DNA of 64,000 nt from a plasmid: NCBI RefSeq assembly GCF_054482525.1, contig NZ_JBTHVG010000007.1. One strand, written 5' to 3'. The translations under genes and the position numbers were made by a program. Positions 5,602 through 38,657 of this stretch are shown piece after piece; position 1 is the stretch's first letter, and each line of letters opens with the position of its first letter. Under the pieces are notes generated by a model. The model did not search any database and was not told the DNA's origin. It saw only the letters and a program-made list of their open reading frames with translations.

Positions 5602-6421
5602 GGCACTGTTGCAAAGTTAGCGATGAGGCAGCCTTTTGTCTTATTCAAAGGCCTTACATTTCAAAAACTCTGCTTACCAGGCGCATTTCGCCCAGGGGAT
5701 CACCATAATAAAATGCTGAGGTCTGGCCTTTGCGTAGTGCACGCATCACCTCAATACCTTTGATGGTGGCGTAAGCCGTCTTCATGGATTTAAATCCCAG
5801 CGTGGCGTTGATTATCCGTTTCAGTTTGCCATGATCGCATTCAATCACGTTGTTCCGGTACTTAATCTGTCGGTGTTCAACGTCAGACGGGCACCGGCCT
5901 TCGCGTTTGAGCAGAGCAAGCGCGCGACCATAGGCGGGCGCTTTATCCGTGTTGATGAATCGTGGGATCTGCCACTTCTTCACGTTGTTGAGGATTTTAC
6001 CCAGAAACCGGTATGCAGCTTTGCTGTTACGACGGGAGGAGAGATAAAAATCGACAGTGCGGCCCCGGCTGTCGACGGCCCGGTACAGATACGCCCAGCG
6101 GCCATTGACCTTCACGTAGGTTTCATCCATGTGCCACGGGCAAAGATCGGAAGGGTTACGCCAGTACCAGCGCAGCCGTTTTTCCATTTCAGGCGCATAA
6201 CGCTGAACCCAGCGGTAAATCGTGGAGTGATCGACATTCACTCCGCGTTCAGCCAGCATCTCCTGCAGCTCACGGTAACTGATGCCGTATTTGCAGTACC
6301 AGCGTACGGCCCACAGAATGATGTCACGCTGAAAATGCCGGCCTTTGAATGGGTTCATGTGCAGCTCCATCAGCAAAAGGGGATGATAAGTTTATCACCA
6401 CCGACTATTTGCAACAGTGCC
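5602..6421 (-). mobile_element. IS26 copy 1 (820 bp, IS6 family)
   Basis: Bounded by GGCACTGTTGCAAA terminal inverted repeats; encodes Tnp26. Confidence 0.95.
5654..6358 (-). CDS. tnpA: IS26 transposase Tnp26 (copy 1; carries a Thr where copies 2 and 3 have Ala in ...RKGQ[T/A]SAFYY...)
   Basis: MNPFKGRHFQRDIILWAVRWYCKYGISYRELQEMLAERGVNVDHSTIYRWVQRYAPEMEK... Confidence 0.95.
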   Translation of the reverse strand: MNPFKGRHFQRDIILWAVRWYCKYGISYRELQEMLAERGVNVDHSTIYRWVQRYAPEMEKRLRWYWRNPSDLCPWHMDETYVKVNGRWAYLYRAVDSRGRTVDFYLSSRRNSKAAYRFLGKILNNVKKWQIPRFINTDKAPAYGRALALLKREGRCPSDVEHRQIKYRNNVIECDHGKLKRIINATLGFKSMKTAYATIKGIEVMRALRKGQTSAFYYGDPLGEMRLVSRVFEM

Positions 6422-7713
6422 GTCGTAAACGGTCGAGTTTCATGATCCGTTTGAGGTGGGCGAAAAGCATCTCCACCTTCTTTCGTTCGCAGCGAGAGAC
6501 GAGGTACTCCGGTGTCTTGGCGATGCGTCGAGCCACGTCGCGGGCAGCCTCATGGATGCTGCGGACGATCTTCCGATTCGGCGTGTTGGGGCAGCATTTC
6601 GCTTTCAACGGGCAGGTGGCGCAGTCGGTTTGGCTGGAGCGGTAAATGACGGTTTTGGCCTTAGTTACCCGCGACCTTTGCTGGGTGAAGGCGCGCCATT
6701 CACTGCGTAGCGGTTTGCCGGCTGGGCAGCGATATTCATTGGCGTCCTGACTCCAGTGAAAGTCGTTACTGGAGAGGCTGTCGTCCTTGCGCTCGGTCTT
6801 GTCCCACACCGGCACATGCGGTTCGATGTCCTTTTCTTCGACCATCCAGGCCAGCATCGGGGCGGTGCCATAAGCGGTATCGCCGATAAGGCGTTCCGGT
6901 GTGAGATCGAACTGCGCCTCGACACGCTCGACCATCGTCCTAGTCGAATCGACTTCGGCGGTACGGTGCGCCGGGGTAGCTTCCACGTCCATGATCACAC
7001 CGTGCTCAGTGTCGATCAGGTAATTCGTGGAGTAGGCAAAAAAGGCCGGGCCACCTGGCGCTGCTGTCCAACGGGACTGAGGATCAGTGAGCGAAATTTT
7101 CTTGGGAAGAGCCTCAGCCAGCGCCTCTTCATCAAGGGCTTCGAGGTACTCGCGCACTGCGCGGCTGCTGAGCTTTGGATCGTTCCAATCGACCTCATCT
7201 CCCGCCACCCCACGTTGCCGGCTGGCATCCGCCTTAATGATGCTGGCGTCGACGGCGAAACCTTCACCCTTGACTAGGCCGGCTGCCATGCAGCGCCGCA
7301 GCACCTCATTGAATAACCAGCGGAATAGATCGCTGTCACGAAAACGCCCATGGCGATTCTTCGAGAAGGTCGAGTGATTGGGGACTTCGTCTTCCAGACC
7401 CAACCGGCAGAACCAGCGATAGGCCAGGTTCAGGTGCACCTCTTCGCACAATCGCCGCTCGGAACGAATGCCATAGCAAGTAGCCGACGACCAGCATGCG
7501 CACCATCAACTCCGGGTCAATCGAGGGACGCCCGATGGGGCTATAGAAATCTGCCAGGTAGGCACGTAGATCACTGAGATCCAAGCACTGGTCGATGCTG
7601 CGCAGGAGATGTTGGGCCGGGACGTGATCTTCCAGATTGAACGAGTAGAACAGGCGCTGCTGTCCTCCCGGTAACTGTCCCATCATGCTGTTCGCCCCCA
7701 CGCTCGCTGACAA
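6422..7713 (-). pseudogene. IS5/IS1182-family transposase, frameshifted and 3'-truncated by IS26
   Basis: Two overlapping minus-strand frames (N-part MSASVGANSMMGQLPGGQQRLFYSFNLEDHVPAQHLLRSIDQ...; C-part with DDE-like region) that together resemble one transposase; reading frame runs into the IS26 end. Confidence 0.55.
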
Positions 7714-7800
7714 AGCAATTTTGCCAACGGCATGGGGAGGCCGCTACTTTTTCAACAGAATCGGCCGCACACAGCCATTCGGCTCAACAGAACCCTGCCT

Positions 7801-8958
7801 TTACCCCACCAAACTCCGGAAACTCGCCCGGTAGTCCGTCGGCTTGAGATGCACATGTTGGCTGAGGTCGCCGGGTAGCGTGAACAGGCGCGGACCGTCC
7901 CGAAACTGGAACACGCGATACAGATGGAATTGATCGCCCGCCTCCTTGGAGAATTCGAGTTCGTTGTGGCTGACCAAGAAAGACGAGCCTACCCCGCCAT
8001 TGGTGGTTTTCACCTCGATGAAGCGCTCATGGGCGTCCTCTTCGAACGACAGGATGTCGAACCCCGCACCGTCTCCCTGGGTGTCGGACACCCAATCCAG
8101 CCGCTGAAAAAGCTCTGGGTGGCCGAGCTCGGTCAGGCGTTGCTGTTCGTAGCCAATCACCCACTGCTCCCCTGCCCGGCCCAGCTTGCGGTTGGCTTCA
8201 TCGCGAGCGGCATAATCGAACTTTCGCGGTAGGCGTTGCCGTAGAGATGCCGGGGTACGCACAAGCACTTCACGGGCGGGTGGTTCTACCAAAGCCGCTC
8301 GGTAGGTTTTGTCACCCGGAAGTTTTACCTCCTCCAGGGCATCGACAAGAGCGCCGACCGTCTGCTGATGTTCCAGAACGTAGGCGTGTACGGATTTACG
8401 CAGCAGCAGTTGGCTGTTGCCGCGTGGCTTGTAGCCGTTGATATAGGGCAGGCCCAGGGCATCGAGTACGGCGCTAATGTTCTGGTGCTTGAGCTCGACT
8501 GAAGACTTGCTGCGACCGTTCAGCAGTTGGCGCAGTGCCTGGTTGTGCTCGGACTTGTTGTACGGCTCCCCAGCCGCCTCGGCACGCAGCATGTCGAAAT
8601 AGTCTTCGACCGTGGCCAGGACCTCTTCTTCGGACCAGTCTTCGCCGATGCGAATGATGCGAAACCCGAGCCGCGTCAGCGCCGGAACGACGGTCGCCTC
8701 GCCACCGGAGAAGCTGTCAGCAGTGAGCGGGCCCTGCTCGGGAAATTGCTTGCCGAAGGCCACACCGGCGATGGCCTTGGAATCGCAATCGGTGCCGGTC
8801 TTCGGATCACGTACCAGGAAGTCGCGGGACTTGCCGTAGCCGTGGCGCGCCAGGAATTTCGTGCGGCCCAGTTGCACGAACTCATCGATGGCAGCCTGCA
8901 CGGCGGCGGGGCTTCGAAGCTGGGAGAGTTGAGACACAGGGTCCTTCCTTACTGTCAT
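7801..8958 (-). CDS. Putative restriction-endonuclease-like protein: N-terminal DNA-binding-like domain plus C-terminal DUF3883/NOV-C-like PD-(D/E)xK nuclease domain (function inferred)
   Basis: 385 aa from ATG at 8958 (MTVRKDPVSQ...); C-terminal region ...GAGFDILSFEEDAHERFIEVKTTNGG...HLYRVFQF resembles a D...E.K nuclease core. The ORF track extends to 9114 but the upstream part overlaps a separate small ORF. Confidence 0.45.
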   Translation of the reverse strand: MTVRKDPVSQLSQLRSPAAVQAAIDEFVQLGRTKFLARHGYGKSRDFLVRDPKTGTDCDSKAIAGVAFGKQFPEQGPLTADSFSGGEATVVPALTRLGFRIIRIGEDWSEEEVLATVEDYFDMLRAEAAGEPYNKSEHNQALRQLLNGRSKSSVELKHQNISAVLDALGLPYINGYKPRGNSQLLLRKSVHAYVLEHQQTVGALVDALEEVKLPGDKTYRAALVEPPAREVLVRTPASLRQRLPRKFDYAARDEANRKLGRAGEQWVIGYEQQRLTELGHPELFQRLDWVSDTQGDGAGFDILSFEEDAHERFIEVKTTNGGVGSSFLVSHNELEFSKEAGDQFHLYRVFQFRDGPRLFTLPGDLSQHVHLKPTDYRASFRSLVG

Positions 8959-8987
8959 GGTGTGCCGGGAACCGCCGAGCCACGAGA

Positions 8988-9233
8988 TTATGAGTAGCCC
9001 CTGAACAGAAACGTCACGATAAAAGCCGTGAACGCCACCAGGCCCATTAAATCCCTTGCGTATTTGCAGCCCGTGCTGTCCAAACCTGTACCAGGTCCGA
9101 TCAACACGCTCCAACCATTGAGGTACGAAAACACCGCCTGACCGAACAAAAAATGCGTGATAGCCGCCGCAGCCATGACGCCGGAATCGTCAGACAGGCT
9201 GTAGCTGTTGACCATTGCCCTGTACGCCTGCAT
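8988..9233 (-). CDS. Small hydrophobic protein (81 aa), possibly co-transcribed with the downstream nuclease-like gene
   Basis: ORF MQAYRAMVNSY...GLVAFTAFIVTFLFRGYS with hydrophobic stretches; ends about 30 bp before the ATG of the next gene on the same strand. Confidence 0.25.
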   Translation of the reverse strand: MQAYRAMVNSYSLSDDSGVMAAAAITHFLFGQAVFSYLNGWSVLIGPGTGLDSTGCKYARDLMGLVAFTAFIVTFLFRGYS

Positions 9234-9519
9234 CTGAAATGGCTATTGCCCTGATGGGAGCCGGCTTTTCAGCCACCGACACCAGCGATGCCGTCAATAT
9301 TCTTTACCCGATAACCATGACCGTACAAGCTAACAAGGCCTGGCAAGCCAGCGGACTTAAAAAGTCTTTTTTTCTACCATCCCACAAAAAAGTTCGTGGT
9401 GGAGAAAAGATAAGCTATGCAAGGCTTTAGGAGACGTGGTTTTTCAGGATGACGAAGAACGATTCGGCGCTAGGTGCAACATAGGTGCATCGCACGAGCG
9501 CTAGGAACGGCGAAAAAAG

Positions 9520-9552
9520 GCGGACGTGGCGAAATCGGTAGACGCAGCAGAC
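9520..9552 (+). tRNA. tRNA-Leu(UAA) exon 1 fragment (positions 1-32: acceptor 5' strand, D-arm, anticodon-stem 5' strand), cut by IS26
   Basis: GCGGACG-UG-GCGAAAUCGGUAGACGC-A-GCAGA-C has a tRNA-Leu-like D-arm; acceptor strand is exactly complementary to CGUCCGC at 12929-12935 on the minus strand. Confidence 0.6.
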
Positions 9553-10372
9553 GGCACTGTTGCAAATAGTCGGTGGTGATAAACTTATCATCCCCTTTTG
9601 CTGATGGAGCTGCACATGAACCCATTCAAAGGCCGGCATTTTCAGCGTGACATCATTCTGTGGGCCGTACGCTGGTACTGCAAATACGGCATCAGTTACC
9701 GTGAGCTGCAGGAGATGCTGGCTGAACGCGGAGTGAATGTCGATCACTCCACGATTTACCGCTGGGTTCAGCGTTATGCGCCTGAAATGGAAAAACGGCT
9801 GCGCTGGTACTGGCGTAACCCTTCCGATCTTTGCCCGTGGCACATGGATGAAACCTACGTGAAGGTCAATGGCCGCTGGGCGTATCTGTACCGGGCCGTC
9901 GACAGCCGGGGCCGCACTGTCGATTTTTATCTCTCCTCCCGTCGTAACAGCAAAGCTGCATACCGGTTTCTGGGTAAAATCCTCAACAACGTGAAGAAGT
10001 GGCAGATCCCACGATTCATCAACACGGATAAAGCGCCCGCCTATGGTCGCGCGCTTGCTCTGCTCAAACGCGAAGGCCGGTGCCCGTCTGACGTTGAACA
10101 CCGACAGATTAAGTACCGGAACAACGTGATTGAATGCGATCATGGCAAACTGAAACGGATAATCAACGCCACGCTGGGATTTAAATCCATGAAGACGGCT
10201 TACGCCACCATCAAAGGTATTGAGGTGATGCGTGCACTACGCAAAGGCCAGGCCTCAGCATTTTATTATGGTGATCCCCTGGGCGAAATGCGCCTGGTAA
10301 GCAGAGTTTTTGAAATGTAAGGCCTTTGAATAAGACAAAAGGCTGCCTCATCGCTAACTTTGCAACAGTGCC
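9553..10372 (+). mobile_element. IS26 copy 2 (820 bp)
   Basis: GGCACTGTTGCAAA inverted repeats; Tnp26 ORF on plus strand; 8 bp to its left (9545-9552) are CAGCAGAC. Confidence 0.95.
9616..10320 (+). CDS. tnpA: IS26 transposase Tnp26 (copy 2)
   Basis: Translation identical to copy 3. Confidence 0.95.
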   Translation: MNPFKGRHFQRDIILWAVRWYCKYGISYRELQEMLAERGVNVDHSTIYRWVQRYAPEMEKRLRWYWRNPSDLCPWHMDETYVKVNGRWAYLYRAVDSRGRTVDFYLSSRRNSKAAYRFLGKILNNVKKWQIPRFINTDKAPAYGRALALLKREGRCPSDVEHRQIKYRNNVIECDHGKLKRIINATLGFKSMKTAYATIKGIEVMRALRKGQASAFYYGDPLGEMRLVSRVFEM

Positions 10373-11381
10373 GGACTTTTCAAGTCTCGGAAGGTTTCTT
10401 CAATCTGCATTCGCTTCGAATAGATATTAACAAGTTGTTTGGGTGTTCGAATTTCAACAGGTAAGTTAGTTGCTAGAACCCATGGCTCCTTTGCCGACGC
10501 TGAGTAGATTTTAGGTGACGGGTGGTGACAATGAGTCCGTGTCGAGCGCTGATTTTTTCGGCCTTTAGAGCGAGATTTATACAATAGAATTTGGCATGAG
10601 ATTGGATTGCTTTTAGTCAGCCTCTTATAGCCTAAAGTCTTTGAGTGACTAGATGACATATCATGTAAGTTGCTGATAGGTTTCCAGTTTTCCGCTCCTA
10701 GGTCTGCATATTGTACTTTTCCTCTTACTCGACTTAACCAGTACCAACCCAGCTTCTCAACGGATTTATACCATGGCACTTTAAAGCCAGCATCACTGAC
10801 AATGAGCGGTGTGGTGTTACTCGGTAGAATGCTCGCAAGGTCGGCTAGAAATTGGTCATGAGCTTTCTTTGAACATTGCTCTGAAAGCGGGAACGCTTTC
10901 TCATAAAGAGTAACAGAACGACCGTGTAGTGCGACTGAAGCTCGCAATACCATAAGTCGTTTTTGCTCACGAATATCAGACCAGTCAACAAGTACAATGG
11001 GCATCGTATTGCCCGAACAGATAAAGCTAGCATGCCAACGGTATACAGCGAGTCGCTCTTTGTGGAGGTGACGATTACCTAACAATCGGTCGATTCGTTT
11101 GATGTTATGTTTTGTTCTCGCTTTGGTTGGCAGGTTACGGCCAAGTTCGGTAAGAGTGAGAGTTTTACAGTCAAGTAATGCGTGGCAAGCCAACGTTAAG
11201 CTGTTGAGTCGTTTTAAGTGTAATTCGGGGCAGAATTGGTAAAGAGAGTCGTGTAAAATATCGAGTTCGCACATCTTGTTGTCTGATTATTGATTTTTCG
11301 CGAAACCATTTGATCATATGACAAGATGTGTATCCACCTTAACTTAATGATTTTTACCAAAATCATTAGGGGATTCATCAG
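10373..11381 (-). mobile_element. Truncated IS10 (outer end plus 5' two-thirds of the transposase gene), cut by IS26
   Basis: Outer end ...CTGATGAATCCCCTAATGATTTTGGTAAAAATCATTAAG (complement at 11343-11381); partial transposase MCELDILHDSLYQFCPELHLKRLNSLTLACHALLDCKTLTLTELGRNLPTKARTKHNIKRIDRLLGNRHLHKERLAVYRWH... (IS4 family, IS10-like) whose frame runs into IS26. Confidence 0.85.
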
Positions 11382-11416: not shown

Positions 11417-12277
11417 ATGCATACGCGGAAGGCAATAACGGAGGCGCTTCAAAAACTCGGAGTCCAAACCGGTGACCTCTTGATGGTGCATGCCTCACTT
11501 AAAGCGATTGGTCCGGTCGAAGGAGGAGCGGAGACGGTCGTTGCCGCGTTACGCTCCGCGGTTGGGCCGACTGGCACTGTGATGGGATACGCGTCGTGGG
11601 ACCGATCACCCTACGAGGAGACTCTGAATGGCGCTCGGCTGGATGACGAAGCCCGCCGTACCTGGCTGCCGTTCGATCCCGCAACAGCCGGGACTTACCG
11701 TGGGTTCGGCCTGCTGAATCAATTTCTGGTTCAAGCCCCCGGCGCGCGGCGCAGCGCGCACCCCGATGCATCGATGGTCGCGGTTGGTCCGCTGGCTGAA
11801 ACGCTGACGGAGCCTCACGAACTCGGTCACGCCTTGGGGGAAGGATCGCCCGTCGAGCGGTTCGTTCGCCTTGGCGGGAAGGCCCTGCTGTTGGGTGCGC
11901 CGCTAAACTCCGTTACCGCATTGCACTACGCCGAGGCGGTTGCCGATATCCCCAACAAACGGTGGGTGACGTATGAGATGCCGATGCTTGGAAGAGACGG
12001 TGAAGTCGCCTGGAAAACGGCATCGGATTACGATTCAAACGGCATTCTCGATTGCTTTGCTATCGAAGGAAAGCCGGATGCGGTTGAAACTATAGCAAAT
12101 GCTTACGTGAAGCTCGGTCGCCATCGAGAAGGTGTCGTGGGCTTTGCTCAGTGCTACCTGTTCGACGCGCAGGACATCGTGACGTTCGGCGTCACCTATC
12201 TTGAGAAGCATTTCGGAACCACTCCGATCGTGCCTCCGCACGAGGCCGTCGAGCGCTCTTGCGAGCCTTCAGGTTAG
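11417..12277 (+). CDS. aac(3)-II: Aminoglycoside N(3)-acetyltransferase AAC(3)-II (gentamicin/tobramycin resistance)
   Basis: 286-aa product MHTRKAITEALQKLGVQTGDLLMVHASLKAIGPVEGGAETVVAALRSAVGPTGTVMGYASWDRSPYEETLNGARLDDEARRTW... Confidence 0.95.
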   Translation: MHTRKAITEALQKLGVQTGDLLMVHASLKAIGPVEGGAETVVAALRSAVGPTGTVMGYASWDRSPYEETLNGARLDDEARRTWLPFDPATAGTYRGFGLLNQFLVQAPGARRSAHPDASMVAVGPLAETLTEPHELGHALGEGSPVERFVRLGGKALLLGAPLNSVTALHYAEAVADIPNKRWVTYEMPMLGRDGEVAWKTASDYDSNGILDCFAIEGKPDAVETIANAYVKLGRHREGVVGFAQCYLFDAQDIVTFGVTYLEKHFGTTPIVPPHEAVERSCEPSG

Positions 12278-12289
12278 AGGCCGTCGACA

Positions 12290-12832
12290 ATGATAATCTG
12301 GATCAACGGACCTTTCGGCGCCGGAAAGACGACGCTCGCTAAGCGGCTGCGCGATCGGCGTTCCAAATCGCTGATCTTTGACCCCGAGGAAATCGGGTTC
12401 GTGGTGAAAGAAACGGTCCCCATGCCAGCGAGCGGAGACTATCAGGATCTCCCCTTGTGGAGGGGACTTACGATCGCGGCGGTCAGGGAGATTCGAAGGA
12501 ATTACTCGCAGGACATCATCATCCCAATGACGCTCGTGCACCCGGACTATCTGACTGAGATACTCGACGGGGTAAGGCGGATCGACGATCAGCTGCTGCA
12601 CATCTTTCTGACGCTCAACGAGGACCTATTGCGTCACCGGATCGCGAACCAGACCATGCATCCTGACCCGAATCGAAATGCGGAGATTCGAGAGTGGCGA
12701 TTAGCGAATGTCGCCCGATGCTTGGCCGCAAGGGAACGGCTTCCATGCACAACCCGTGTTCTCGATAGTGGTGCACACACCAGCGATGAACTCGCAGCGA
12801 TGGTGCTCGACGGAATCGATGGGCGCACCTGA
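12290..12832 (+). CDS. tmrB: TmrB-like ATP-binding protein (tunicamycin resistance family)
   Basis: 180-aa ORF with P-loop MIIWINGPFGAGKTTLAKRL; known aac(3)-II/tmrB pairing. Confidence 0.85.
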   Translation: MIIWINGPFGAGKTTLAKRLRDRRSKSLIFDPEEIGFVVKETVPMPASGDYQDLPLWRGLTIAAVREIRRNYSQDIIIPMTLVHPDYLTEILDGVRRIDDQLLHIFLTLNEDLLRHRIANQTMHPDPNRNAEIREWRLANVARCLAARERLPCTTRVLDSGAHTSDELAAMVLDGIDGRT

Positions 12833-12924
12833 TCGCCTTCGACGCCTGCGCAAAGCGTAGCGCGAGGGTGGCGGGCTCACGACCAAACGCCCAGAGGTCG
12901 ATCATCGCAGGGATGTTTGGCTTT

Positions 12925-12975
12925 GTGGTGCGGACGACGGGACTCGAACCCGTACTCTCACAGAGAAGCAGATTT
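12925..12975 (-). tRNA. tRNA-Leu(UAA) exon 2 (A35 to CCA: anticodon AA, anticodon-stem 3' strand, long variable arm, T-arm, acceptor 3' strand)
   Basis: Minus-strand RNA AAAA-UCUGC-UUCUCUGUGAGAGU-ACGGGUUCGAGUCCCGU-CGUCCGC-A-CCA; stems pair with the exon 1 fragment at 9520-9552. Confidence 0.6.
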
Positions 12976-13189
12976 TCGTACCACCTCGACTTTCGCCGCC
13001 GTCTGATGACGTTCGTGGTCTGGACTGTCCCTTCGCCATTGCCCGAAGGCTTTAGGCGCCGCCCGTCCAGTCTCTACACCTTCCCCCGAAGGGGCTTGGC
13101 TCGGGATTGGCTTAGGGTATTGCCCGTTAGCGTTCCCCGACTTTGAGCGGTTCTACTCCGCGGATTTCCCCGCGGGCACTCCAATTTTA
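12976..13189 (-). ncRNA. Group I (tRNA-Leu-type) intron, about 214 nt, inserted between U34 and A35 of tRNA-Leu(UAA)
   Basis: Follows exon ...CUU; ends with G before exon 2; contains elements recalled from cyanobacterial tRNA-Leu and Azoarcus tRNA-Ile introns (CCCGAGCCAAGCC; GAAGGUGUAGAGACUGGACGGG...CCUAA). Confidence 0.6.
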
Positions 13190-13199
13190 AAGTCTGCTG

Positions 13200-14019
13200 G
13201 GCACTGTTGCAAAGTTAGCGATGAGGCAGCCTTTTGTCTTATTCAAAGGCCTTACATTTCAAAAACTCTGCTTACCAGGCGCATTTCGCCCAGGGGATCA
13301 CCATAATAAAATGCTGAGGCCTGGCCTTTGCGTAGTGCACGCATCACCTCAATACCTTTGATGGTGGCGTAAGCCGTCTTCATGGATTTAAATCCCAGCG
13401 TGGCGTTGATTATCCGTTTCAGTTTGCCATGATCGCATTCAATCACGTTGTTCCGGTACTTAATCTGTCGGTGTTCAACGTCAGACGGGCACCGGCCTTC
13501 GCGTTTGAGCAGAGCAAGCGCGCGACCATAGGCGGGCGCTTTATCCGTGTTGATGAATCGTGGGATCTGCCACTTCTTCACGTTGTTGAGGATTTTACCC
13601 AGAAACCGGTATGCAGCTTTGCTGTTACGACGGGAGGAGAGATAAAAATCGACAGTGCGGCCCCGGCTGTCGACGGCCCGGTACAGATACGCCCAGCGGC
13701 CATTGACCTTCACGTAGGTTTCATCCATGTGCCACGGGCAAAGATCGGAAGGGTTACGCCAGTACCAGCGCAGCCGTTTTTCCATTTCAGGCGCATAACG
13801 CTGAACCCAGCGGTAAATCGTGGAGTGATCGACATTCACTCCGCGTTCAGCCAGCATCTCCTGCAGCTCACGGTAACTGATGCCGTATTTGCAGTACCAG
13901 CGTACGGCCCACAGAATGATGTCACGCTGAAAATGCCGGCCTTTGAATGGGTTCATGTGCAGCTCCATCAGCAAAAGGGGATGATAAGTTTATCACCACC
14001 GACTATTTGCAACAGTGCC
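13200..14019 (-). mobile_element. IS26 copy 3 (820 bp)
   Basis: GGCACTGTTGCAAA inverted repeats; 8 bp to its left (13192-13199) are GTCTGCTG, the reverse complement of CAGCAGAC. Confidence 0.95.
13252..13956 (-). CDS. tnpA: IS26 transposase Tnp26 (copy 3)
   Basis: Translation identical to copy 2. Confidence 0.95.
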   Translation of the reverse strand: MNPFKGRHFQRDIILWAVRWYCKYGISYRELQEMLAERGVNVDHSTIYRWVQRYAPEMEKRLRWYWRNPSDLCPWHMDETYVKVNGRWAYLYRAVDSRGRTVDFYLSSRRNSKAAYRFLGKILNNVKKWQIPRFINTDKAPAYGRALALLKREGRCPSDVEHRQIKYRNNVIECDHGKLKRIINATLGFKSMKTAYATIKGIEVMRALRKGQASAFYYGDPLGEMRLVSRVFEM

Positions 14020-15095
<1,076 letters not shown>

Positions 15096-37284: not shown

Positions 37285-38657
37285 CGCGTGCTCCCTCCGA
37301 AGTGATAGTTGTTTTGGTAACGACTGAGCATGCGGGCGGAAAGCTGCTGACGCATGTAGCTCATCTGACGATCGACAACCAGCAGCGCATCCTGCTGTAC
37401 CTGCACCTGTGACTGAAACGCCGCAATCTGCCGGGTGGCATCATTCATGTTGTCGTTAATATGTCCGATAACCGCTTCGTCATAATTTCCCGTGGCCACC
37501 ATCGCCCGGGCCTGCTGTATCAGCTCCTGAATGTACTGCAGCAGGATGTCGTAACCGATATAGTCCGTCAGCTGGTAAATCATGCTGTTGGAAACTCCGA
37601 GCATCTGCGGGTCAACCAGGTATTTGAAGACGGGGATGGTGGTACTGGAAATAAAGCCTTTTTCCTTGTCATCCAGAGGCGTGTCACTGACCGCCTTGTT
37701 CTGAATGCTGGCCAGAAGTTTAGTAATCTGAGACTTCAGTGCATTATCCCGGCTGATAGTCACCGGTGTGTCTGCCACCACTTTCAGGCATTTATCAGAA
37801 TCGTTGCAGTGATAAATTTTTGCTGTGCCGCCTTCCATCATGGCCCGGATAATTGAGCGGTCAGTGGTTCTGGCTGACAGCGGTGTGATTTCGCCGTTGG
37901 GACCAAACACCAGTGAGCCGGTCAGCGTCATCACAAATTCTTTCAGCTCTTTGTTGCCGTCAAACATTCTGTTTTTGGAAAGCGCATTCCACATGATGTT
38001 GATGTTTTTGGTCACCCGCTCCTTATCCTTGTCGCTGGCTTTATCCCTGACACTGTCAGATTTCCCGCCAACGGTACATCCCTGCCGGGAAGCCGCCCAG
38101 TCAGCAAAAATATTGCTCTCACCGGCAATGTCCTGACAGACTTTCTGCTGGGACACCTGCGTCCGGGGGAAAAGCCCGCCGATAATCCCCTGTGCAGCCT
38201 GGCAGGAACTGAGGTTCATACTGTTAATGTCGCTTGCCATTTTCTGCACGAAGTCTTTTGCGGTTTTTATTTCCGGCACCGTTGTCTGCAGGGCAAGGTC
38301 AAAAAAGTAACCGGCAGCATTGCTCATAATCTGCTTAACAAAACGCTGCAACTGCTCACCATTAATAAAACTGAACGAGCCGAGATAGGCGTCGATGCCG
38401 CCACATCCAGCATTGATATCCGGCAGCGTCATGGAAATTAGCTGAACATTTTTGACCTGAGTACGGGCATACAGGGAGCCACCGTAAGCATAGCCGGCGG
38501 CCTGCCCCTGCCAGACGCCCGGCTGTGTGGTATTGGAAGCAAATCCCAGCTTATTAAAGAACTGATTCATGTCGCTGTTCACATCCGCTGACGCTGCAGG
38601 CGTCACCGTCAGTAAGGCGGCACAAAGAACCAGAAGAGGTTTAATGCGTGGCATCAT
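37281..38657 (-). CDS. traH: TraH pilus assembly protein
   Basis: 458-aa ORF with signal peptide MMPRIKPLLVLCAALLTVTPAASA. Confidence 0.9.
   Translation of the reverse strand: MMPRIKPLLVLCAALLTVTPAASADVNSDMNQFFNKLGFASNTTQPGVWQGQAAGYAYGGSLYARTQVKNVQLISMTLPDINAGCGGIDAYLGSFSFINGEQLQRFVKQIMSNAAGYFFDLALQTTVPEIKTAKDFVQKMASDINSMNLSSCQAAQGIIGGLFPRTQVSQQKVCQDIAGESNIFADWAASRQGCTVGGKSDSVRDKASDKDKERVTKNINIMWNALSKNRMFDGNKELKEFVMTLTGSLVFGPNGEITPLSARTTDRSIIRAMMEGGTAKIYHCNDSDKCLKVVADTPVTISRDNALKSQITKLLASIQNKAVSDTPLDDKEKGFISSTTIPVFKYLVDPQMLGVSNSMIYQLTDYIGYDILLQYIQELIQQARAMVATGNYDEAVIGHINDNMNDATRQIAAFQSQVQVQQDALLVVDRQMSYMRQQLSARMLSRYQNNYHFGGSTR

What the first reader, a model, noticed from the sequence alone, without database searches (positions are those of the whole stretch)
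12925..13191. tRNA-Leu(UAA) gene carrying a group I intron in the anticodon loop, inside a plasmid resistance region
Read on the minus strand, 12925-12975 encodes the 3' part of a type II tRNA (anticodon-stem 3' strand UCUGC, long variable arm, T-arm ACGGGUUCGAGUCCCGU, acceptor CGUCCGC, discriminator A, CCA). The matching 5' part (GCGGACG-UG-GCGAAAUCGGUAGACGC-A-GCAGA-C) lies 3.4 kb away at 9520-9552 on the plus strand; acceptor and anticodon stems pair 7/7 and 5/5. Between U34 and A35 sit about 214 nt that end in G and contain motifs I recognise from tRNA-Leu group I introns and the Azoarcus tRNA-Ile intron (CCCGAGCCAAGCC; GAAGGUGUAGAGACUGGACGGG...CCUAA). The anticodon would be UAA with the intron at the classical tRNA-Leu position. 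The segment is about 60% GC, pointing to a non-enterobacterial source. Self-splicing tRNA introns are not something I would expect on an enterobacterial resistance plasmid, and nothing in the usual resistance-gene feature set would flag it.
Basis: partly seen in the sequence, partly recalled or inferred. Interest (0 to 1): 0.85.

Follow-up and report, generated by a model that had tools for sequence, protein, structure and literature searches.

The report
IS26-split tRNA-Leu gene with ribozyme intron
The window holds both halves of a tRNA-Leu(UAA) gene interrupted by a complete self-splicing-type (group I) intron; the gene rode in from a soil alphaproteobacterium next to the gentamicin-resistance gene aac(3)-IId, sits intact and unannotated on more than 1,200 resistance plasmids, and in this plasmid has been cut in two and inverted by IS26.

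Summary
On the minus strand, 13189-12977 is a 213-nt group I (IC3) intron and 12976-12926 is the 3' exon of a type II tRNA. The 5' part of the gene is at 9520-9552(+).

Each half abuts an IS26 copy, and the two copies are inverted. The same 8 bp (CAGCAGAC) flanks both, also inverted. That is the signature of one intramolecular IS26 transposition with inversion.

Joining the halves and removing the intron gives an 86-nt tRNA-Leu(UAA) (ARAGORN). The joined sequence is 100% identical to an uninterrupted stretch in about 1,240 PLSDB plasmids and 620 of 5,426 complete E. coli genomes. None of the plasmid or E. coli hits listed carries an annotation there.

Rfam's general group I model scores below its threshold (36.8 vs 50 bits). 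A model built only from 41 chromosomal tRNA-Leu introns hits the window once (137 bits, E 1e-31). P1-P9 and the cloverleaf are supported by covariation in 61 homologues.

The nearest relative is Jiella pacifica (Hyphomicrobiales), 93% identical. The adjacent aac(3)-IId-tmrB pair is 86% identical to Sinorhizobium-like chromosomal contigs.

Verdict: a real, canonical passenger gene. It is dead as a tRNA gene here, although the ribozyme itself is complete. It is a new member of a known kind, in an unexpected and unannotated place.

The parts
9520..9552 (+). 5' fragment of tRNA-Leu(UAA): nucleotides 1-33 (acceptor 5' strand, 3-bp D arm, anticodon-stem 5' strand GCAGA, C32)
   Evidence: Sequence. 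It is contiguous with the intron in pCTX-M3 and about 1,240 other plasmids.
9545..9552 (+). 8-bp IS26 target-site duplication CAGCAGAC, copy 1
   Evidence: L001 6096-6103 is present in both window segments.
9553..10372 (+). IS26 copy, transposase on the + strand
   Evidence: Terminal repeats GGCACTGTTGCAAA at 9553 and 10372. ORF 9598-10320.
13200..14019 (-). IS26 copy in the opposite orientation. Its transposase gene reads toward the intron fragment.
   Evidence: Terminal repeats at 13200 and 14019. ORF 13252-13974 on the minus strand.
13190..13199 (-). Retained 5'-exon nucleotides CAGCAGACTT (tRNA positions 26-35). They include target-duplication copy 2 (13192-13199), the whole anticodon-stem 5' strand and the 5' splice site after U34.
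12977..13189 (-). Group I intron, subgroup IC3-like, 213 nt.
- Internal guide GGAGU at 13182-13178.
- P7 at 13074-13068 with 13027-13022.
- GAAA tetraloops in L2 and L9.
- Terminal G at 12977.
   Evidence: Rfam RF00028 36.8 bits, E 5.9e-8. Custom model 137.4 bits, E 1.4e-31 on 13157-13014. Covariation in 61 homologues. The minimum-energy fold recovers P3, P4, P5, P6a, P8 and P9 in full and P2 in part.
12926..12976 (-). 3' exon of tRNA-Leu(UAA): A35 A36, anticodon-stem 3' strand, long variable arm, T arm, acceptor 3' strand, A73, encoded CCA
9215..9519 (+). About 305 bp upstream flank that travels with the tRNA gene. Origin unknown. It contains a tandem TAGGTGCA repeat (9471-9478, 9482-9489) and no sigma-70 consensus promoter.
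   Evidence: Homology to the Pseudomonas-type DUF3883 island stops at L001 5765, which is about window 9214. Promoter scan.
12290..12832 (+). tmrB-like AAA ATPase, convergent with the tRNA gene, 93 bp from its 3' end
11417..12277 (+). aac(3)-IId aminoglycoside acetyltransferase
   Evidence: NCBIfam AAC_3_II 541 bits. AMRFinder label in pCTX-M3.
10373..11381 (.). IS10 remnant (truncated IS4-family transposase plus RNA-OUT) between IS26 and aac(3)-IId. It is part of the inverted segment.
7801..8937 (-). DUF3883 (ScoMcrA_N/NOV_C) gene from a Pseudomonas/Stutzerimonas-type island. It lies left of the tRNA piece in the module.

Best explanation
The finding is the two halves of one gene: a type II tRNA-Leu(UAA) interrupted between U34 and A35 by a compact, ORF-less IC3 group I intron.

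**Origin (inferred).** The gene is chromosomal DNA from an alphaproteobacterium of the order Hyphomicrobiales. It was carried along as a passenger with the neighbouring aac(3)-IId-tmrB resistance genes when these were mobilised onto plasmids.

**Ancestral module (shown).** The order is ISCfr1 - DUF3883 - tRNA-Leu(intron) -> <- tmrB <- aac(3)-IId - IS26, and the tRNA gene there is intact.

**How the intact gene would work (inferred from the family).** If transcribed, the precursor folds into P1-P9 and binds GTP in P7. GTP attacks the U.G pair at the 5' splice site. The terminal G then replaces GTP, and the exons are ligated. The product is an 86-nt tRNA with an encoded CCA.

**What happened in this plasmid (shown).** An IS26 transposed within the same molecule into the anticodon stem, at target CAGCAGAC. 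This duplicated IS26 and inverted the 2.8-kb segment between the two copies. The first 33 nt of the tRNA now lie at 9520-9552(+). The rest lies at 13199-12926(-). The tRNA gene is therefore inactive here.

**What survives.** Because the 8-bp duplication covers the anticodon-stem 5' strand, the 3' fragment still holds a complete splicing unit: anticodon stem, P1, intron and 3' exon. It lies downstream of the IS26 transposase gene in the sense orientation. Read-through RNA could therefore still self-splice, with no useful product.
For: **Gene and split**
- Sequence and junctions.
- Inverted 8-bp duplication.
- ARAGORN finds an intron-containing tRNA on the joined sequence.
- ARAGORN calls tRNA-Leu(taa), 86 nt, after the 213 nt are removed.
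- The uninterrupted gene is 100% identical over 450 nt in 1,244 plasmid records. The same holds in 620 of 5,426 complete E. coli genomes, with no annotated feature under any hit listed.
- Module order in pCTX-M3. Window-to-pCTX-M3 map with the 8-bp overlap.

**Group I identity**
- RF00028 is the best Rfam match, E 5.9e-8.
- A model built from 41 chromosomal introns, none from plasmids, gives one hit in the window: 137.4 bits, E 1.4e-31.
- The proposed P1-P9 plus cloverleaf structure was counted on an alignment of 61 tRNA-Leu(UAA) pre-tRNAs that was not fitted to any structure. 92.4% of cells are paired, against 35-44% when partners are slid.
- 60 of 86 pairs show double changes.
- P3, P6 base, P7 and the P8 base are 100% paired; P4 is 99.7% paired.

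**Origin**
- The Jiella pacifica chromosomal tRNA-Leu is 93% identical, with an identical 5' exon.
- aac(3)-IId-tmrB is 86% identical at nucleotide level and 88% at protein level to metagenome contigs. Those contigs are syntenic with the Sinorhizobium meliloti chromosome.

**Background from papers**
- Standard bacterial tRNA finders miss tRNA genes that contain group I introns (bioRxiv 10.1101/2025.07.03.662931).
- Bacterial group I introns sit mainly in tRNA and rRNA genes (PMC3984707).
Against: - Rfam's own gathering threshold for RF00028 is not reached: 36.8 against 50 bits.
- No sigma-70 consensus promoter lies upstream of the gene. Nothing here shows transcription or splicing in enterobacteria.
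- No genome was found that holds the tRNA piece next to tmrB. Homology to the Sinorhizobium-like contigs stops at the tmrB stop codon. Similarity to Jiella is confined to the tRNA gene itself. A single donor for tRNA plus tmrB plus aac(3) is therefore an inference.
- The fold energy of the intron alone is not exceptional (z = -1.4).
Confidence: 0.9

Rival explanations
1. The plasmid-borne gene, in its intact form, is a selected functional cargo. It is transcribed in enterobacteria, self-splices, and supplies extra tRNA-Leu(UAA) for UUA/UUG codons, helping expression of plasmid genes. The copy in this window is a recent loss.
For: - The gene is complete and canonical in more than 1,200 plasmids across at least 12 genera.
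- All core pairs, A73 and CCA are present.
- Group I tRNA introns need no host factors in principle (PMC3984707).
Against: - The sequence is essentially invariant (at least 99% identical in 1,272 of 1,293 records). Conservation therefore reflects recent spread, not selection.
- No consensus promoter lies upstream.
- This plasmid persists with the gene destroyed.
- Many aac(3)-II-type modules lack the tRNA part altogether: 1,983 records match the tmrB-containing query against 1,317 for the tRNA query.
Confidence: 0.07
2. The sequence is a decayed pseudogene: it looks like tRNA plus intron, but the ribozyme core is no longer competent even in the intact plasmid copies.
For: - It is sub-threshold against Rfam RF00028.
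- P6a is much shorter than in the nearest relative, Jiella.
- Activity is untested.
Against: - Every helix of the family consensus is a standard pair in the plasmid copy (one search found no non-pairs).
- 93 alignment columns invariant across 61 homologues are all kept.
- It scores 137 bits against a model of chromosomal introns, as high as the Jiella chromosomal copy at 131.6 bits.
- Peripheral loop lengths vary freely in the family.
Confidence: 0.03

Closest known systems
[quoted passage not shown] 1990 and Kuhsel et al. 1990, as listed in PMC3984707)
   Same: - Same host gene, and same insertion site between U34 and A35.
- Same IC3-type core.
- Short P1 with a U.G pair at the splice site.
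- No ORF.
   Different: - The host lineage is proteobacterial, and the copy sits on enterobacterial resistance plasmids.
- Core sequence is GAAGGUGUAGAGACUGG. From my memory, Anabaena reads GAAGGUGCAGAGACUCG.
- Peripheral P5, P6 and P9 differ.
[quoted passage not shown]
   Same: - About 200 nt and ORF-less.
- Near-identical J6/7-P7 core.
- GAAA tetraloops in L2 and L9, with CCUAAG-type receptor motifs in P5 and P8.
- Terminal G.
   Different: - Different tRNA (Ile, anticodon CAU) and a different position in the anticodon loop.
- The Azoarcus sequence comparison rests on my memory of that sequence, not on a tool result.
Chromosomal tRNA-Leu(UAA) introns of Alpha- and Betaproteobacteria, Acidobacteria, Chloroflexi and Bacteroidota recovered here (for example Jiella pacifica, Sphingomonas laterariae, Acetobacteraceae AT-5844, Burkholderia spp.)
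   Same: Same gene, same site, same structure. Jiella is 93% identical, with identical 5' exon.
   Different: Those copies are single chromosomal housekeeping genes. This one is detached from its genome, embedded between a Pseudomonas-type DUF3883 island fragment and resistance genes, and here split by IS26.
Gammaproteobacterial tRNA-Leu(UAA) intron from a deep-subsurface isolate (Vepritskiy et al., J Bacteriol 2002; recalled from memory, not retrieved)
   Same: It shows that tRNA-Leu(UAA) group I introns exist outside cyanobacteria.
   Different: Chromosomal and environmental, with no link to mobile resistance DNA.

Membership tests
Group I intron (IC3 subgroup) | P1 formed by the 5' exon end and an internal guide sequence, with a U.G wobble at the 5' splice site | tested here: met
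   ACUU|UA...UGGAGU. The U34.G pair is U.G in 61 of 61 homologues, and the flanking pairs are C-G 61/61 and U-A/U-G 61/61 (helix 4).
Group I intron (IC3 subgroup) | Intron ends in a guanosine (omega-G) immediately before the 3' exon | tested here: met
   G at 12977 followed by AAAATC. This column is invariant in the 61-sequence alignment (G248).
Group I intron (IC3 subgroup) | Conserved core helices P3-P8 including the P3/P7 pseudoknot, and P4-P6, in the canonical order | tested here: met
   Paired cells: P3 100%, P4 99.7%, P6 100%, P7 100% (one covarying pair AU/GC/UA), P8 100% and 89.5%, P9 94-99%. The slid controls give 35-44%.
Group I intron (IC3 subgroup) | Score at or above the Rfam RF00028 gathering threshold | tested here: not met
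   36.8 bits against 50. E 5.9e-8 in a 411-nt search. Not listed at gathering. A family-specific model gives 137.4 bits, E 1.4e-31.
Group I intron (IC3 subgroup) | IC3 periphery: no P5abc extension, GNRA tetraloops in L2 and L9 with receptor-like motifs in P8 and P5 | tested here: inconclusive
   GAAA loops are seen at L2 and L9. CCUAAG and CCUAAA motifs are seen in P5 and P8. Docking cannot be tested from sequence.
Group I intron (IC3 subgroup) | GTP-dependent self-splicing | not testable with these tools
   Needs in vitro transcription or RT-PCR.
Bacterial type II tRNA-Leu | Cloverleaf with 7-bp acceptor, 3-bp D stem, long variable arm and T arm. After splicing: anticodon UAA, discriminator A73. 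| tested here: met
   ARAGORN calls tRNA-Leu(taa), 86 nt. Paired cells: acceptor and D stems 100%, anticodon stem 98.7%, T stem 99%, all with covariation.
Bacterial type II tRNA-Leu | Contiguous, transcribable gene in this window | tested here: not met
   Split after nucleotide 33 by IS26, with the halves on opposite strands. ARAGORN and Rfam see no tRNA here in the window.
IS26 intramolecular replicative transposition with inversion | Two IS26 copies in inverted orientation. An 8-bp target duplication in inverted orientation, one copy outside one IS26 and one inside the other. The uninterrupted target is known elsewhere. | tested here: met
   IS26 at 9553-10372(+) and 13200-14019(-). CAGCAGAC at 9545-9552(+) and 13199-13192(-). 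The intact target is in about 1,240 plasmids.

The most novel reading that the evidence does not exclude
The intact version of this gene is transcribed in Escherichia, Klebsiella, Salmonella and Acinetobacter, and its intron self-splices there. That would make it a natural, plasmid-borne group I ribozyme and foreign tRNA working in a large fraction of clinical isolates, possibly with a small effect on UUA/UUG decoding or on plasmid fitness. The broken copy in this window could still splice out of IS26 read-through RNA.
Probability: 0.2. Interest if true: 0.65.

Novelty: new member of a known kind. Interest (0 to 1): 0.45.

Why it matters
1. **Annotation gap.** A tRNA gene and a ribozyme sit unannotated on more than 1,200 sequenced resistance plasmids and in about 11% of complete E. 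coli genomes. Routine pipelines cannot see tRNA genes that contain group I introns.
2. **Origin of a resistance gene.** The tRNA and intron are slowly evolving and lineage-specific. They work as a tag that points to a Hyphomicrobiales source for the clinically important aac(3)-IId-tmrB block, whose origin I could not find described.
3. **Clean IS26 example.** The split copy is a textbook case of IS26 intramolecular inversion, with the target duplication preserved.
4. **Limits.** It does not change what is known about how group I introns work.

Tried and rejected
- **ARAGORN and Rfam on the raw window.** At default thresholds neither sees the gene.
- **ARAGORN with introns allowed, on the joined sequence.** It finds the tRNA but puts the intron at the eukaryote-type site and calls it 'tRNA-Stop(tta)'. 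I rejected that in favour of the U34/A35 site. That site is the one that ends the intron in G, gives a 7-nt anticodon loop and matches 60 homologues.
- **Promoter scan upstream of the intact gene.** Nothing found.
- **Donor search.**
  - The genome scan with the IC3 core stopped at 120 rows and held no near-identical copy.
  - Flanks of the tRNA piece match none of the fetched loci by blastn or tblastx.
  - The 75-aa ORF next to the tRNA belongs to the Pseudomonas-type DUF3883 island, not to the tRNA donor.
  - Jiella shares only the tRNA gene.
- **Exact tRNA|IS26 junction.** No match in PLSDB or in complete E. coli genomes. A longer junction query was uninformative because unrelated IS26 pieces were joined.
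- **Literature.** No paper links tmrB, ISCfr1, IS26 or pCTX-M3 with a group I intron or a tRNA-Leu gene.
- **Chance resemblance.** Considered and rejected (E 1e-31).

Full report
**1. What is in the sequence**

Read on the minus strand, 13199-12926 is: CAGCAGACTT, then 213 nt ending in G (13189-12977), then AAAATCTGC-TTCTCTGTGAGAGT-ACGGGTTCGAGTCCCGT-CGTCCGC-A-CCA. On the plus strand, 9520-9552 is GCGGACG-TG-GCG-AAATCGGTAGA-CGC-A-GCAGA-C.

Both pieces end exactly at an IS26 terminal repeat (GGCACTGTTGCAAA). The window holds three 820-bp IS26 copies, at 5602-6421, 9553-10372 and 13200-14019. The second has its transposase on the + strand and the third on the - strand.

The 8 bp next to IS26 are CAGCAGAC in both pieces, once on each strand. 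Two inverted IS26 copies, with an inverted 8-bp duplication outside one copy and inside the other, are what one intramolecular replicative IS26 transposition with inversion leaves behind.

The arrangement before the event would have been: ...DUF3883 - tRNA-Leu -> <- tmrB <- aac(3)-IId - IS10 remnant - IS26 - blaTEM-1.

**2. The two halves are one gene**

I joined 9300-9552 to the reverse complement of 12700-13191, keeping one copy of the duplication.
- ARAGORN with introns allowed finds one tRNA spanning the junction.
- With the 213 nt removed, it calls tRNA-Leu(taa), 86 nt. The tRNA has a 7-bp acceptor, a 3-bp D stem, a long variable arm, A73 and CCA.

The reconstruction is not hypothetical.
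- The joined 450 nt are 100% identical to uninterrupted DNA in pCTX-M3 and about 1,240 other PLSDB plasmids.
- The same holds in 620 of 5,426 complete E. coli genomes, with 599 places on plasmids and 82 on chromosomes.
- Every RefSeq hit listed there has no annotated feature under the match. PLSDB's gene table holds no RNA genes, so the empty plasmid rows say less.
- In the window itself ARAGORN and Rfam see nothing.
- This fits the report that bacterial tRNA finders miss tRNA genes with group I introns (bioRxiv 10.1101/2025.07.03.662931).

**3. The intron is a group I intron**

Rfam RF00028 is the best local match (13199-13007, 36.8 bits, E 5.9e-8). That is under its gathering score of 50.

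To get an independent test I scanned 100,044 species genomes for the IC3 core GAAGGTGTAGAGACTNGACGG.
- The scan stopped at 120 loci.
- ARAGORN finds an intron-containing tRNA at nearly all of them. 61 are tRNA-Leu(UAA) with the intron after U34. They come from Alpha- and Betaproteobacteria, Acidobacteria, Chloroflexi, Bacteroidota and Eremiobacterota.

A MAFFT alignment of the 61 pre-tRNAs, not fitted to any structure, has 93 invariant columns. I projected a hand-derived structure onto it:

`(((((((..(((...........))).{{{{{(((((....)))))...(((((((....))))))).......((((((....((((((...(((.(.(((.....)))).)))...))))))(((...((((....))))..)))...[.[[[[[...)))))).(((....(((....)))...))).......]]]]]]...((((...((((....)))).((((....))))..))))........}}}}}..((((...)))).(((((.......))))))))))))....`

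Here { } is the anticodon stem and is P7. The counts are:
- 92.4% of cells form standard pairs, against 35-44% when partners are slid by 1-3 columns.
- 60 of 86 pairs have changes on both sides.
- None of 500 shuffles reached any observed measure.
- P3, P6 and P7 are 100% paired and P4 99.7%. P8 and P9 range from 89.5% to 100%.
- Only the length-variable distal P5 and the variable arm are low, and that is an alignment problem.

A covariance model of the core was built from 41 chromosomal introns, with no plasmid sequence.
- It hits the window once, at 13157-13014(-): 137.4 bits, E 1.4e-31.
- The Jiella chromosomal copy scores 131.6 bits.

Features visible in the plasmid copy:
- U34.G wobble at the 5' splice site
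- internal guide GGAGU
- terminal G
- bulged A in P7
- GAAA tetraloops in L2 and L9
- CCUAAG-like motifs in P5 and P8
- a UUCG-capped P6a and P8
- no ORF

The minimum-energy fold recovers P3, P4, P5, P6a, P8 and P9 in full and P2 in part.

**4. Where it came from**

The module in pCTX-M3 reads: ISCfr1 - DUF3883 - 75-aa ORF - 63-aa ORF - tRNA-Leu(intron) -> <- tmrB <- aac(3)-IId - IS26. The window matches it at 99.9-100%, apart from the inversion.

The module is a mosaic of three pieces.

*ISCfr1 + DUF3883 + truncated small ORF.*
- This part is 94.5% identical to metagenome contigs carrying helicase, a 100-aa ORF and DUF3883.
- It is 89% identical to Stutzerimonas kunmingensis.
- Homology ends at L001 5765.

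*aac(3)-IId + tmrB.*
- These are 86% identical at nucleotide level, and 88% at protein level, to 120-176-kb metagenome contigs.
- The flanks of those contigs are syntenic with the Sinorhizobium meliloti chromosome, which has tmrB alone at 81%.
- Homology ends at the tmrB stop codon.

*The roughly 700-bp tRNA piece between them.*
- It has no donor match in the flanks.
- The gene itself is 93% identical (278 of 299 aligned positions) to the chromosomal tRNA-Leu(UAA) of Jiella pacifica (Hyphomicrobiales).
- Compared with Jiella, the 5' exon is identical and P2, P3, P4, P7 and P8 are nearly identical.
- Other relatives are about 80% identical.

Both the tRNA and the resistance pair therefore point to Hyphomicrobiales. 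Capture of tRNA-Leu - tmrB - aac(3) as one block is the simplest reading, but it is not shown.

**5. How it works, and what is dead**

- *Shown:* the gene is split, so no tRNA-Leu can be made from this plasmid. The exact tRNA|IS26 junction is absent from PLSDB and from complete E. coli genomes, so the event is private to this lineage.
- *Inferred from the family:* in intact copies a transcript would self-splice by the usual two transesterifications.
- *Not known:* whether enterobacteria transcribe it at all. No sigma-70 consensus promoter lies upstream.
- *No test for selection:* the sequence is essentially invariant among plasmids, so conservation says nothing either way.
- *A detail:* the duplicated 8 bp include the whole 5' strand of the anticodon stem.
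  - The 3' fragment therefore keeps anticodon stem, P1, intron and 3' exon.
  - From its title, a paper listed in PMC3984707 (Zaug et al. 1993; not read here) reports that exon pairing in the anticodon stem is needed for Anabaena pre-tRNA splicing.
  - The fragment lies downstream of the IS26 transposase gene in the sense orientation.
  - Splicing of read-through RNA is therefore possible, but it would be pointless.

**6. Comparison and novelty**

- It works like the cyanobacterial/plastid tRNA-Leu(UAA) intron and the Azoarcus tRNA-Ile intron. It meets every structural criterion I could test for an IC3 group I intron, except the generic Rfam cutoff.
- The kind is long known, and my genome scan shows it is common in Proteobacteria.
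- What I did not find described anywhere is its presence as a fixed part of the aac(3)-IId module. That module occurs on plasmids of Escherichia, Klebsiella, Salmonella, Acinetobacter, Enterobacter, Shigella, Citrobacter, Aeromonas, Pseudomonas, Vibrio and Proteus.
- The literature library is limited to open-access papers, so an earlier mention cannot be excluded.

**7. Verdict**

- The element is a genuine passenger tRNA-Leu(UAA) gene with an IC3 group I intron, of alphaproteobacterial origin. In this window it has been inactivated by an IS26 inversion.
- Interest is moderate. It exposes an annotation blind spot and gives a useful tag for the origin of a resistance gene, but it is not a new mechanism.

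Noticed in passing
L122 7127-8564, L123 7127-8564 (JGI metagenome contigs); L126/L127 8001-8567 (Sinorhizobium meliloti): - An aac(3)-II-like gene and tmrB sit together, overlapping and in the same order as on plasmids, on 120-176-kb contigs. These contigs are about 86% identical to the S. meliloti chromosome in the flanking genes.
- AAC(3) and TmrB are each 88% identical to the plasmid proteins.
- S. meliloti itself has only tmrB (81%).
- This points to a Sinorhizobium/Ensifer-related chromosome as the source lineage of aac(3)-IId-tmrB.
   Followed up: partly
window 6422-9214; L130 6001-8604; L136-L139: - The ISCfr1-DUF3883 side of the module comes from a Pseudomonas/Stutzerimonas-type island: 1,700-aa DEAD/UvrD helicase, a 100-aa membrane ORF, then a DUF3883 (ScoMcrA_N/NOV_C) protein.
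- In Stutzerimonas kunmingensis an ISCfr1-like IS1182 element lies right after DUF3883, 89% identical over both.
- The plasmid's '75-aa hypothetical protein' is the truncated 100-aa ORF.
   Followed up: partly
L002-L121 (120 genome loci): - The same IC3 core occurs in introns of many other tRNA genes. ARAGORN labels them tRNA-Arg(CCU/UCU), Met or Ile(CAU), Lys(UUU), Thr(UGU), Asn(GUU), Glu(CUC), Ser and Leu(CAA).
- Hosts include Actinobacteria (Microbacterium), Patescibacteria, Chloroflexi and Nitrospirae.
- ARAGORN often misplaces the intron, so some of these labels are wrong.
   Followed up: no
L080 428-700 (-): A contig binned as Klebsiella pneumoniae (MAG, 145 kb) carries a tRNA(CAU) gene with a 198-nt group I intron. 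It has no match in the plasmid collection. It may be a mis-binned contig or a chromosomal island.
   Followed up: partly
L141 12464-12787 and 12766-14307: In Jiella pacifica a large serine recombinase gene (Resolvase + Zn_ribbon_recom) starts at the 3' end of the intron-containing tRNA-Leu gene. It is followed by TraG/T4SS coupling-protein genes. The tRNA-Leu 3' end looks like the attachment site of an integrative conjugative element.
   Followed up: no
window 9471-9478 and 9482-9489: A tandem 8-bp repeat TAGGTGCA lies 30-50 bp upstream of the tRNA 5' end. It could be a donor-type promoter or regulator site. There is no sigma-70 consensus nearby.
   Followed up: no
window 37833-37904: ARAGORN calls a tRNA-Thr(ggt) inside the F-type transfer region. 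Rfam's tRNA model does not report it at gathering, so it is probably a false positive.
   Followed up: no
window 14961-15095: A 135-bp stretch beside the blaTEM-1 region is identical to the 135 bp that lie between aac(3)-IId and IS26 in pCTX-M3 (L001 7913-8047). It looks like a relic of an earlier IS26-bounded arrangement of the same module.
   Followed up: no
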